Shown: positions 21,001-24,000 of the stretch, piece by piece
Layout: every line of letters begins with the position of its first letter
Position numbering within the stretch: the stretch's first letter is position 1
Assembly: GCF_016903815.1 (NCBI RefSeq)
Contig: NZ_CP069974.1
Source: Escherichia coli
GTDB taxonomy: Bacteria > Pseudomonadota > Gammaproteobacteria > Enterobacterales > Enterobacteriaceae
Strand: one strand, 5' to 3'
DNA length: 64,000 bases
Program-made: the position numbers

Positions 21001-24000
21001 TCGATCACGGCACGATCATCGTGCGGGAGGGCAAGGGCTCCAAGGATCGGGCCTTGATGTTACCCGAGAGCTTGGCACCCAGCCTGCGCGAGCAGCTGTC
21101 GCGTGCACGGGCATGGTGGCTGAAGGACCAGGCCGAGGGCCGCAGCGGCGTTGGGCACTGTTGCAAATAGTCGGTGGTGATAAACTTATCATCCCCTTTT
21201 GCTGATGGAGCTGCACATGAACCCATTCAAAGGCCGGCATTTTCAGCGTGACATCATTCTGTGGGCCGTACGCTGGTACTGCAAATACGGCATCAGTTAC
21301 CGTGAGCTGCAGGAGATGCTGGCTGAACGCGGAGTGAATGTCGATCACTCCACGATTTACCGCTGGGTTCAGCGTTATGCGCCTGAAATGGAAAAACGGC
21401 TGCGCTGGTACTGGCGTAACCCTTCCGATCTTTGCCCGTGGCACATGGATGAAACCTACGTGAAGGTCAATGGCCGCTGGGCGTATCTGTACCGGGCCGT
21501 CGACAGCCGGGGCCGCACTGTCGATTTTTATCTCTCCTCCCGTCGTAACAGCAAAGCTGCATACCGGTTTCTGGGTAAAATCCTCAACAACGTGAAGAAG
21601 TGGCAGATCCCGCGATTCATCAACACGGATAAAGCGCCCGCCTATGGTCGCGCGCTTGCTCTGCTCAAACGCGAAGGCCGGTGCCCGTCTGACGTTGAAC
21701 ACCGACAGATTAAGTACCGGAACAACGTGATTGAATGCGATCATGGCAAACTGAAACGGATAATCGGCGCCACGCTGGGATTTAAATCCATGAAGACGGC
21801 TTACGCCACCATCAAAGGTATTGAGGTGATGCGTGCACTACGCAAAGGCCAGGCCTCAGCATTTTATTATGGTGATCCCCTGGGCGAAATGCGCCTGGTA
21901 AGCAGAGTTTTTGAAATGTAAGGCCTTTGAATAAGACAAAAGGCTGCCTCATCGCTAACTTTGCAACAGTGCCAAAAATAGTCCTTCAGTGGGACGAAAT
22001 GATCCGGACCGCTGGCTCCCTGAAGCTGGGCAAAGTACAGGCTTCAGTGCTGGTCCGTTCATTGCTGAAAAGTGAACGTCCTTCCGGACTGACTCAGGCA
22101 ATCATTGAAGTGGGGCGCATCAACAAAACGCTGTATCTGCTTAATTATATTGATGATGAAGATTACCGCCGGCGCATTCTGACCCAGCTTAATCGGGGAG
22201 AAAGTCGCCATGCCGTTGCCAGAGCCATCTGTCACGGTCAAAAAGGTGAGATAAGAAAACGATATACCGACGGTCAGGAAGATCAACTGGGCGCACTGGG
22301 GCTGGTCACTAACGCCGTCGTGTTATGGAACACTATTTATATGCAGGCAGCCCTGGATCATCTCCGGGCGCAGGGTGAAACACTGAATGATGAAGATATC
22401 GCACGCCTCTCCCCGCTTTGCCACGGACATATCAATATGCTCGGCCATTATTCCTTCACGCTGGCAGAACTGGTGACCAAAGGACATCTGAGACCATTAA
22501 AAGAGGCGTCAGAGGCAGAAAACGTTGCTTAACGTGAGTTTTCGTTCCACTGAGCGTCAGACCCCAATACGTGCGCAACAACCGTCTTCCGGAGCCTGTC
22601 ATACGCGTAAAACAGCCAGCGCTGGCGCGATTTAGCCCCGACGTATCCCCACTGTTCGTCCATTTCCGCGCAGACGATGACGTCACTGCCCGGCTGTATG
22701 CGCGAGGTTACCGACTGCGGCCTGAGTTTTTTAAATGGCGGAAAATCGTGTTGAGGCCAACGCCCATAATGCGGGCGGTTGCCCGGCATCCAACGCCATT
22801 CATGGCCATATCAATGATTTTCTGGTGCGTACCGGGTTGAGAAGCGGTGTAAGTGAACTGCAGTTGCCATGTTTTACGGCAGTGAGAGCAGAGATAGCGC
22901 TGATGTCCGGCGGTGCTTTTGCCGTTACGCACCACCCCGTCAGTAGCTGAACAGGAGGGACAGCTGATAGAAACAGAAGCCACTGGAGCACCTCAAAAAC
23001 ACCATCATACACTAAATCAGTAAGTTGGCAGCATCACCGGAACTTCAAAACTGCGCAAAACACGCAAATACGCACAAGAAAGTAGGGCTGCGCTTGGAAT
23101 TCGGAAAATAAACCACATCAAAACTACTTTTTAGCCAAATAACGTTTGGGAATCACCAGAATGGTGGGACAACAGCGGTTTTAGTGCCCTAAATCGTACG
23201 TTTTCATCCAGTTGCCCCTCAAACCCCATGTTCAAGTCAGAATAGTGGACAGGCGGCCAAGAACTTCGTTCATGATAGTCTCCGGAACCCGTTCGAGTCG
23301 TTTTCCGCCCCGTGCTTTCATATCAATTGTCCGGGGTTGATCGCAACGTACAACACCTGTGGTACGTATGCCAACACCATCCAACGACACCGCAAAGCCG
23401 GCAGTGCGGGCAAAATTGCCTCCGCTGGTTACGGGCACAACAACAGGCAGGCGGGTCACGCGATTAAAGGCCGCCGGTGTGACAATCAGCACCGGCCGCG
23501 TTCCCTGCTGCTCATGACCTGCGGTAGGATCAAGCGAGACAAGCCAGATTTCCCCTCTTTCCATGTCAGATTTCCTCCTGACCAGTCGCCGGTGCATCCA
23601 GCCATTCTCGTTCTTCAGCTGATATTTCAGCATTCGGATCACACTGTGCCAGTAGCTCAGCCAGTGAATATTGCGGGCGTCTGTACGGCTCAACAATCAG
23701 CCGGCCATTATCAATGACCATGCCAACTTCATTATCTGTGCCCAGAGACAGCGCATTCAGCAGTGCCGGTGGGACGGTCAGCATAACTGAGCCGCCAACC
23801 CTCTTCAGTCGGGTGGTATGCATTCTTCACCTCCATAAAAGTTATATTTAAATATAACATCCACTAAAAAAACACACCAGGCTTTAACGCACAATGTTTA
23901 ATAAAAATATAACTTTCAACCAAACAGTAAACCCAGCGTGGTTGCTTCCATATGCAGCAATACCGGCAGCAGCAGGCCACCACTTCTGATCCTGGCCACT

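What the first reader, a model, noticed from the sequence alone, without database searches (positions are those of the whole stretch)
21974..23038. Nested mobile-element scars: IS26 cuts a Tn3-family tnpA whose terminal repeat in turn interrupts IS1
The Tn3-type 38-bp repeat (22528-22565) directly abuts IS1 internal sequence (insB 5' part), and the tnpA 5' end is removed by IS26 copy 3. This gives a relative order of events: IS1 present, then Tn2/Tn3 insertion into it, then IS26-mediated truncation. A beta-lactamase gene normally carried by such transposons is absent from this window, presumably lost.
Basis: partly seen in the sequence, partly recalled or inferred. Interest (0 to 1): 0.3.

Follow-up and report, generated by a model that had tools for sequence, protein, structure and literature searches.

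The report
Known IS26–Tn2–IS1 scar beside pemK
This is a well-known stack of broken mobile elements (an intact IS26, the last 592 bases of a TEM-type Tn2/Tn3 transposon, and the first 473 bases of IS1) that marks one edge of the antibiotic-resistance region in a very common family of IncF plasmids; it is real, correctly read, and ordinary.

Summary
IS26 (21154-21973) is followed by the last 185 codons of a Tn3-family tnpA and an exact 38-bp terminal repeat (21974-22565). That repeat abuts IS1 nt 473-1 (22566-23038, minus strand), and the IS1 left end lies 193 bp from pemK.

The window holds no other IS1 piece, no other Tn2 piece and no class A beta-lactamase gene.

The same structure occurs in at least 1,349 PLSDB plasmids and in 593 of 5,426 complete E. 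coli genomes. It is already named in the literature as deltaIS1-deltaTn2-IS26(-delta intI1), at the pemI/pemK edge of IncF multiresistance regions.

The proposed order (IS1, then Tn2, then IS26) holds, with two refinements:
- **IS26:** relatives carry this same IS26 inside tnpA, flanked by an 8-bp duplication (AAAAATAG). IS26 therefore first simply inserted; the tnpA 5' part was replaced later by delta intI1 DNA.
- **Tn2/IS1 junction:** the reciprocal junction expected from a simple Tn2 insertion at IS1 nt 473 was found nowhere. Insertion followed by loss of the other half cannot be separated from a deletion starting at the Tn2 end.

Verdict: already known, low interest.

The parts
20523..21153 (+). 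delta intI1: class 1 integron integrase gene, first 210 of 337 codons, cut by IS26. The dfrA-type cassette lies upstream at 19892-20365 (minus strand).
   Evidence: NCBIfam NF011946, positions 1-210/337, E 1e-148. Sequence read.
21154..21973 (+). IS26, third of five copies. It is complete (820 bp), with tnp26 at 21217-21921. Its 8-bp flanks differ (CGGCGTTG / AAAAATAG), so there is no target duplication in this window.
   Evidence: NF033587 IS6 family transposase, E 2e-82.
21974..22532 (+). Remnant of the tnpA gene of a TEM-type Tn3-family transposon (delta Tn2 in the literature). The last 185 codons are present (21975-22529) plus the stop codon; about 816 N-terminal codons are missing.
   Evidence: NF033527, positions 793-954/954. 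592/592 identical to pNMBU-W13E19_02 and 590/592 identical to two complete copies.
22528..22565 (-). 38-bp terminal inverted repeat of the transposon at its tnpA end (IRL). It is complete, with its outer end at 22565.
   Evidence: Exact single match, 0 expected by chance.
22566..23038 (-). delta IS1: nt 1-473 of the 768-bp element. Present are the left terminal repeat (23016-23038), a complete insA (22708-22983) and the 5' part of insB'. The right 295 bp are absent.
   Evidence: 473/473 identity to R100 IS1a and IS1b.. Annotated as a truncated IS1 transposase in relatives.
23039..23231 (.). R100-type IncFII backbone spacer between the IS1 left end and pemK. It is identical to R100 up to the IS1 boundary; R100 then continues with a 1.3-kb DUF262 gene that is absent here.
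23232..23823 (-). pemK (23232-23564) and pemI (23566-23823), the toxin-antitoxin pair that marks the backbone edge of the resistance region.
   Evidence: Identical annotation in relatives.

Best explanation
The segment is the conserved pemK-proximal boundary module of the multiresistance region of R100-related IncFII plasmids, written delta IS1-delta Tn2-IS26(-delta intI1). It is a record of successive transposition events and has no function of its own. Only IS26 is still a working element.

Most likely history:

(1) A complete IS1 sat 193 bp downstream of pemK. This is shown: complete IS1 copies lie at the identical boundary in many plasmids.

(2) The tnpA end of a TEM-type Tn2 became joined to IS1 nt 473 at an AT-rich site (GTATT), which inactivated IS1. 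The junction is shown. The mechanism is inferred. I favour ordinary Tn2 transposition into IS1, with the bla-side half and the right part of IS1 lost later by recombination between Tn2 or IS26 copies; I put this at about 0.55.

(3) IS26 transposed into tnpA about 554 bp from its 3' end and made the 8-bp duplication AAAAATAG. This is shown in relatives.

(4) In this lineage, the DNA to the left of that IS26 (tnpA 5' part, res, tnpR, blaTEM and, in relatives, ISEcp1-blaCTX-M) was replaced by a class 1 integron segment cut in intI1. The event was either recombination between IS26 copies or an IS26-mediated deletion or cointegration. The outcome is shown; the exact event is inferred.

What remains cannot move: one Tn2 repeat without a transposase, and one IS1 end with insA only.
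For: Exact element boundaries.

Widespread identical structure: at least 1,349 plasmids and 593 of 5,426 E. coli genomes. PGAP annotates it as IS26 / truncated Tn3-family transposase / truncated IS1 / pemK. The names 'delta IS1-delta Tn2-IS26' and 'delta IS1-delta Tn2-IS26-intI1 delta' appear in PMC6052338 and PMC10654068.

Step 1: 980/980 single-piece matches to complete IS1 plus this backbone (example L014).

Step 2: the Tn repeat is complete and terminal while IS1 is cut internally, so the Tn end made the junction. Tn2 does insert into IS1, as shown by a complete copy with the 5-bp duplication TGAGA.

Step 3: there are more than 20 listed plasmids in which the two tnpA parts flank this IS26, spaced by 820+8 bp. 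The duplication was read directly in L007, and pC15-1a carries the left half of the same junction.

Step 4: the flanks of IS26 in the window differ, and no AAAAATAG|IS26 junction, Tn2 5' part or bla gene is present in the window.
Against: The reciprocal junction expected from step 2 as a simple insertion was not found in any collection searched.

The Tn2 lineage that shares this IS26 insertion has its bla-end repeat next to Tn21 tnpA in pC15-1a, not next to IS1. The two ends therefore do not share a target duplication.

The metagenome search has little power: the window's own junction was found in only one contig.

The order of step 3 relative to step 2 rests on the assumption that a transposon with a disrupted tnpA no longer moves.
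Confidence: 0.9

Rival explanations
1. The Tn2/IS1 junction was not made by insertion into IS1. It was made by a deletion starting exactly at the Tn2 tnpA-end repeat (intramolecular transposition of the Tn2 end into the neighbouring IS1).

In this model the ancestor had the order Tn21 tnpA - GNAT gene - complete IS1 - pemK, with Tn2 inside Tn21 tnpA. About 1.35 kb between the Tn2 end and IS1 nt 474 was then deleted.
For: No reciprocal IS1 junction was found anywhere.

Plasmids with the order Tn21 tnpA - GNAT - complete IS1 - pemK exist at the same backbone boundary.

In pC15-1a, the Tn2 that shares this IS26 insertion has its bla end in Tn21 tnpA at R100 position 19201. Its orientation would place the tnpA end facing IS1.

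Other Tn2 copies in this plasmid family also lack target duplications, for example pTW10722_93, where the flanks are merA and merT.

The junction lies at an AT-rich pentamer, as expected for a transposase-made joint.
Against: The intermediate, Tn2 end | ATCAA + Tn21 tnpA 3' end at 100% identity, was not found. Only a Tn1721-type version at 94% identity exists.

Tn3-family target immunity is expected to suppress intramolecular events (established knowledge, not tested here).

The complete Tn copies examined differ from the window remnant at 2 of 592 bases, so none of them is the direct ancestor.
Confidence: 0.3
2. The two IS1 fragments that bound such resistance regions are the two halves of one IS1 split by Tn2. 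On this reading the other half (nt 469-768) should lie, intact up to a Tn2 repeat, elsewhere on this replicon.
For: PMC6052338 states that the variable region is bounded at both ends by IS1 fragments.

In pNMBU-W13E19_02 the far end of the region carries an IS1 right-end fragment in the matching orientation.
Against: That far-end fragment is only about 76 bp long, is cut by IS26 rather than by Tn2, and sits at the backbone junction of R100's other IS1 copy, IS1a. It is equally well explained as a remnant of a second IS1.

No IS1 nt 474 onward | Tn2 junction exists in the collections searched.

The window itself contains no other IS1 sequence.
Confidence: 0.15
3. The juxtaposition is a chance similarity or a mis-assembly of repeated elements.
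For: None found.
Against: All three elements match exactly, with 0 matches expected by chance.

The identical junction-spanning 1.35 kb is present in over a thousand independently sequenced complete plasmids.
Confidence: 0.01

Closest known systems
delta IS1-delta Tn2-IS26(-intI1 delta) boundary segment of IncF (F33:A-:B-, F2 and related) multiresistance regions, downstream of pemI/pemK (PMC6052338; PMC10654068)
   Same: The same three remnants in the same order and orientation, the same position next to pemK, and the same adjoining truncated intI1. The sequence is identical across at least 1,349 plasmids.
   Different: Nothing detectable. The window is simply another carrier.
Tn2::IS26 with ISEcp1-blaCTX-M-15 in IncFII plasmids of the pC15-1a / pNMBU-W13E19_02 type
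   Same: The same IS26 insertion point in tnpA (AAAAATAG), the same tnpA 3' allele, and in pNMBU-W13E19_02 the same IS1 nt 473 junction and pemK boundary.
   Different: Those plasmids keep the tnpA part to the left of IS26, with the blaCTX-M unit; pC15-1a also keeps tnpR and blaTEM-1. In the window this is replaced by delta intI1-dfrA-aadA-sul1 integron DNA, and no bla gene is present.
Complete TEM transposon nested in IS1 with a 5-bp duplication TGAGA (E. coli AR_452 chromosome; the same bla-end junction occurs in the plasmid of strain ES10)
   Same: A Tn2/Tn3-type transposon end abutting internal IS1 sequence in an R100/Tn21-derived context.
   Different: There both IS1 halves and both transposon ends are present, with a target duplication at IS1 nt 156-160, and the transposon is in the opposite orientation relative to IS1. 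In the window only one junction exists, at nt 473.
IS1b at the r-determinant/RTF boundary of plasmid R100 (NR1)
   Same: The same IS1 sequence, the same orientation (left end towards pemK), and the same backbone up to the IS1 boundary.
   Different: In R100, IS1b is complete and lies about 1.3-1.4 kb further from pemK, beyond a DUF262 gene that is missing here. Relatives show IS1 at several nested distances from pemK.

Membership tests
IS26 (IS6/IS26 family) | 820-bp element with 14-bp perfect terminal inverted repeats GGCACTGTTGCAAA | tested here: met
   21154-21973, both repeats exact; identical to copies 1 and 2.
IS26 (IS6/IS26 family) | Single transposase gene tnp26 (234 aa, IS6-family DDE) | tested here: met
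   21217-21921; NF033587, E 2e-82, full profile length.
IS26 (IS6/IS26 family) | 8-bp target-site duplication flanking a simple insertion | tested here: not met
   In the window the flanks are CGGCGTTG and AAAAATAG. The duplication is met for the same insertion in relatives, with AAAAATAG on both sides. The window copy has therefore been through a later rearrangement.
TEM-type Tn3-family transposon (Tn1/Tn2/Tn3) | 38-bp terminal inverted repeat at the element end | tested here: met
   Exact at 22528-22565. It lies at the same place relative to the tnpA stop codon as in complete copies.
TEM-type Tn3-family transposon (Tn1/Tn2/Tn3) | tnpA encoding a roughly 1,001-aa Tn3-family transposase | tested here: inconclusive
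   Only the C-terminal 185 aa are present (NF033527, positions 793-954/954; 258 bits, below the full-length cutoff of 500). The DNA is 590-592/592 identical to complete copies. It is a remnant, not a functional member.
TEM-type Tn3-family transposon (Tn1/Tn2/Tn3) | res site, tnpR, blaTEM and a second terminal repeat | tested here: not met
   None is present in the window.
TEM-type Tn3-family transposon (Tn1/Tn2/Tn3) | 5-bp target duplication | tested here: inconclusive
   Only one end is present. The predicted partner junction (AATAC + bla-end repeat + IS1 nt 474 onward) was not found in PLSDB, the E. coli genomes or the metagenome contigs.
Tn2 specifically (versus Tn1, Tn3) | Diagnostic base differences against reference Tn1, Tn2 and Tn3 sequences | not tested
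   The reference records were not held in the collections, and the Partridge papers were not held. Two alleles of the 592-bp end were seen. The name delta Tn2 is taken from PMC6052338 and PMC10654068.
IS1 | 768-bp element with roughly 23-bp terminal inverted repeats at both ends | tested here: not met
   Only the left repeat (23016-23038) and nt 1-473 are present. The right repeat is absent from the window. It is a truncated copy.
IS1 | insA and insB' genes giving the InsAB' transposase by frameshift | tested here: inconclusive
   insA is complete (22708-22983; NF033558, positions 1-81/199). insB' is cut at nt 473. Relatives are annotated as 'frameshifted; incomplete; missing C-terminus'.
R100-type IncFII multiresistance-region boundary | IS1 with its left end facing pemK-pemI-CPBP gene-repA(IncFII) on R100-like backbone | tested here: met
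   The backbone is identical to R100 up to the IS1 end.

The most novel reading that the evidence does not exclude
The ubiquitous IS1(nt 473)|Tn2 junction may not come from Tn2 jumping into IS1. It may be a roughly 1.35-kb deletion made by the Tn2 tnpA end, starting from a copy that sat in Tn21 tnpA next to a complete IS1. With the other Tn2-end/IS1 joints seen (nt 156, nt 328), this would make the pemK-side IS1 a recurrent landing or deletion end-point for Tn2, despite Tn3-family target immunity.
Probability: 0.3. Interest if true: 0.15.

Novelty: already known. Interest (0 to 1): 0.06.

Why it matters
It matters only as a lineage marker. The identical delta IS1-delta Tn2-IS26 joint ties this plasmid to the large R100-derived IncFII family that carries blaCTX-M, blaTEM and other resistance genes in E. 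coli, Klebsiella, Shigella and Salmonella.

The intact IS26 at its edge remains a substrate for further IS26-mediated gain or loss of resistance genes.

It raises no open question. The only unresolved detail is whether the Tn2/IS1 joint arose by insertion or by an adjacent deletion.

Tried and rejected
(1) Searched for the reciprocal junction of a simple Tn2 insertion at IS1 nt 473. I used a 117-nt chimeric query against PLSDB and the complete E. coli genomes, and an exact 29-mer against the metagenome contigs. There was no contiguous match. All 'full coverage' hits were two separate pieces 250-650 bp apart, which turned out to be other Tn2/IS1 arrangements. The positive control for the metagenome scan found only one contig, so that negative result is weak.

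(2) Tried to type the remnant as Tn1, Tn2 or Tn3. Reference records (BN000925, KY749247, AJ851089, L27758) are not in the collections. The key papers (AAC 2011 55:4971; AAC 2005 49:1267) are not held.

(3) Considered pTW10722_93 (Tn in the mer operon beside IS1) and pRHBSTW-00176_4 (Tn with duplication TATTT between IS1 and pemK) as direct ancestors. Both were rejected: the IS1/backbone boundaries differ from the window, and the tnpA end differs at 2 bases.

(4) Looked for the intermediate of the deletion model (Tn2 end | ATCAA + Tn21 tnpA 3' end). Only a Tn1721-type flank at 94% identity was found.

(5) Searched the window for the missing parts: the IS1 right end, blaTEM, tnpR/res and an AAAAATAG|IS26 junction. 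None is present.

Full report
**What is in the sequence**

Reading 20500-24500 and scanning for element termini gives the following.
- IS26 terminal repeats mark five 820-bp copies, plus one 880-bp IS6100-like relative at 14534-15413. The third IS26 is at 21154-21973.
- The 38-bp Tn3-type terminal repeat occurs once, exactly, at 22528-22565.
- The IS1 left terminal repeat occurs once, at 23016-23038. The IS1 right repeat does not occur.

Bases 21975-22529 are an open frame of 185 codons. They match the last 162 positions of the NCBIfam Tn3-family transposase model. The stop codon lies inside the 38-bp repeat, as in complete copies of the transposon.

Bases 22566-23038 (minus strand) are 473/473 identical to nt 1-473 of both IS1 copies of plasmid R100. 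Identity ends exactly where the transposon repeat starts. insA is intact, and insB' is cut about a third of the way in.

Immediately to the left of IS26 is the first 210 of 337 codons of intI1, and beyond it a dfrA cassette. To the right of IS1 come 193 bp of R100-type backbone, then pemK, pemI, a CPBP-protease gene and IncFII repA.

**Absences**

A blastn of full-length IS1 against the window finds only this one segment. The blaTEM start is absent. A tblastn with TEM-1 finds no class A beta-lactamase homologue (best E = 2.5). A tnpA-5'/res/tnpR probe taken from a relative hits only IS26 ends. 'No bla in this window' is confirmed.

**How common it is, and whether it is known**

The 1,351-bp stretch spanning the IS26 end, the transposon remnant, the IS1 remnant and the backbone is present at 100% identity and near-full length in many records.
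- At least 1,349 PLSDB plasmids carry it, from Escherichia, Klebsiella, Salmonella, Shigella and others.
- 593 of 5,426 complete E. coli genomes carry it.
- RefSeq annotation reads IS26 / Tn3-family transposase (partial) / IS1 transposase (partial) / pemK.

Two papers on F33:A-:B- plasmids describe exactly this. They report a variable region downstream of pemI/pemK that begins with 'delta IS1-delta Tn2-IS26', extended to 'delta IS1-delta Tn2-IS26-intI1 delta' as a shared 2.8-kb segment (PMC6052338; PMC10654068). The window carries that segment unchanged.

**Order of events: IS1 first**

A query made of a complete IS1 joined to the window's backbone gives single-piece 980/980 matches in many plasmids. 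One example is a Shigella plasmid with the order Tn21 tnpA - GNAT gene - IS1 - pemK. An intact IS1 at precisely this boundary therefore exists and is the obvious precursor.

Compared with R100 itself, this IS1 lies about 1.3-1.4 kb closer to pemK, and a DUF262 gene is missing. Other relatives have the IS1 left end at intermediate distances. This looks like a series of IS1-adjacent deletions, but that is an inference.

**Order of events: IS26 into tnpA**

I extended the window's remnant leftwards with 509 bp of tnpA taken from a complete copy. This query gave more than 20 listed plasmids in which the two parts of the query are separated by 828 bp, which is IS26 plus 8 bp.

In pNMBU-W13E19_02 the junctions read ...CCCCGAAAAATAG|IS26|AAAAATAGTCCTTC.... 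This is a simple IS26 insertion with its 8-bp target duplication. pC15-1a carries the left half of the same junction.

In the window the left flank is intI1 sequence (CGGCGTTG), and no AAAAATAG|IS26 junction exists. IS26 therefore inserted first, and the tnpA 5' part was removed or exchanged later by an event at this IS26. In those relatives the lost part carries orf477-blaCTX-M-15 or blaCTX-M-55, and in pC15-1a also ISEcp1, tnpR and blaTEM-1. This supports 'bla presumably lost'.

**Order of events: Tn2 against IS1**

The transposon repeat is complete and terminal, while IS1 is cut internally.

Whether it was a simple insertion is not shown. A simple insertion predicts a partner junction: IS1 nt 474-768, the duplicated AATAC, then the bla-end repeat.
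- No contiguous match exists in PLSDB or in the E. coli genomes.
- The exact 29-mer is absent from the metagenome contigs. That collection is weak for this purpose: the window's own junction occurs in only one contig.

The approach can find real cases. In the E. coli AR_452 chromosome, a complete TEM transposon sits inside IS1 with the duplication TGAGA at nt 156-160 and both IS1 halves present. The ES10 plasmid has the same bla-end junction. A third, different joint (IS1 nt 328-768 | bla-end repeat) is in pHNEP28_cfr.

**An alternative for the Tn2/IS1 joint**

In pC15-1a, the Tn2 that shares this IS26 insertion has its bla end in Tn21 tnpA, at R100 position 19201. Its orientation would place the tnpA end facing an IS1 about 1.1 kb away in plasmids arranged like the Shigella example. 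A 1.35-kb deletion starting at the Tn2 end would then produce the window's joint and would explain the missing partner junction.

Three points count against this.
- The required intermediate was not found. Only a Tn1721-type flank at 94% identity exists.
- Tn3-family target immunity should disfavour intramolecular events (established knowledge, not tested here).
- The complete copies examined differ from the window's remnant at two bases, 22042 and 22293.

Recombination between two Tn2 copies in different sites would also remove the target duplication while leaving 'insertion into IS1' correct. I rate insertion followed by loss at about 0.55 and deletion from the Tn2 end at about 0.3.

**The 'other IS1 half'**

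In pNMBU-W13E19_02 the far end of the resistance region has about 76 bp of the IS1 right end, cut by IS26. It lies at the backbone junction of R100's other copy, IS1a. It may be the remnant of a second IS1 rather than the missing half of this one, and the data cannot tell. It is not in the window.

**Function**

None is expected for the remnants. The transposon has one repeat and no transposase, and IS1 has one end and insA only. IS26 is intact and identical to two other copies in the window, so it can still take part in IS26-mediated rearrangements. From established knowledge of Tn3, a single 38-bp repeat can confer target immunity against further Tn1/2/3 insertions. This was not tested.

**Verdict**

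The structure is already described and extremely common, so interest is low.

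Noticed in passing
window 34983-42191: IS26 copies 4 and 5 (34991-35810, 41364-42183) differ from copies 1-3 at nt 459, 613 and 614 (G>A). This changes codon 184 of tnp26 from Gly to Asn, which is the IS26-v1 'enhanced activity' variant as defined in PMC9412624.

The two copies bound a 5.5-kb segment carrying an aac(3)-II family gene (37849-38733) and IS4-family transposase remnants. The whole unit is flanked by an 8-bp direct duplication CTTTTTTC and splits traI (C-terminal part 32540-34990, N-terminal part 42184-44918). It is a pseudo-compound transposon inserted in the relaxase gene.
   Followed up: partly
window 5222-11301: The 4,440-bp segment between IS26 copies 1 and 2 carries an IS91-family (ISCR-type) transposase and erm(B), by comparison with pCR-0268_2. 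It begins and ends with the same 8 bp, CAAAATTT. This is the pattern expected if a circular molecule carrying one IS26 with its target duplication was incorporated next to another IS26.
   Followed up: no
window 44919-47896: traC (45572-47896, minus strand) lacks about its last 100 codons. About 650 bp further on comes the start region of traI, with no traW...traD genes between them. This is an internal deletion of the F-type transfer region. Together with the split traI, the plasmid is probably not self-transmissible.
   Followed up: no
window 23039-23231, compared with R100 (L003 5946-7570), L006 and L008: The left end of the pemK-side IS1 lies at different distances from pemK in different R100-related plasmids. 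In R100 it lies beyond a 1.3-kb DUF262/GmrSD gene. In pRHBSTW-00176_4 it lies at the start of that gene. In pTW10722_93 it is 68 bp further from pemK than in the window. The series looks like nested IS1-adjacent deletions.
   Followed up: partly
window 26795-29097: An IS21-family element (istA/istB, ISEc12 by comparison with the ES10 plasmid) sits inside the IncFII replication region, between repA (25509-26378) and the upstream copB/repA2 control gene.
   Followed up: no
window 11350-21153: The rest of the resistance region left of the finding is the common array mph(A)-mrx(A)-mphR(A), IS6100, chrA-padR, sul1-qacEdelta1, an aadA cassette, a dfrA cassette and delta intI1. Window bases 5069-25000 are 100% identical to plasmid NZ_CP127312.1. 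The array is identified by comparison with pCR-0268_2, which lacks the cassette part of it.
   Followed up: partly
L009 (pC15-1a) 25057 and L016 (NZ_CP054980.1) 6062: The bla-end flank of Tn2 in pC15-1a (Tn21 tnpA ...CTCGATCAA|) and the tnpA-end flank of a Tn2 in a Shigella plasmid (|ATCAAGCAGGGCAC, Tn1721-type tnpA) meet at the same pentamer, ATCAA. They look like two halves of one insertion that now sit in different Tn21-family backgrounds.
   Followed up: partly
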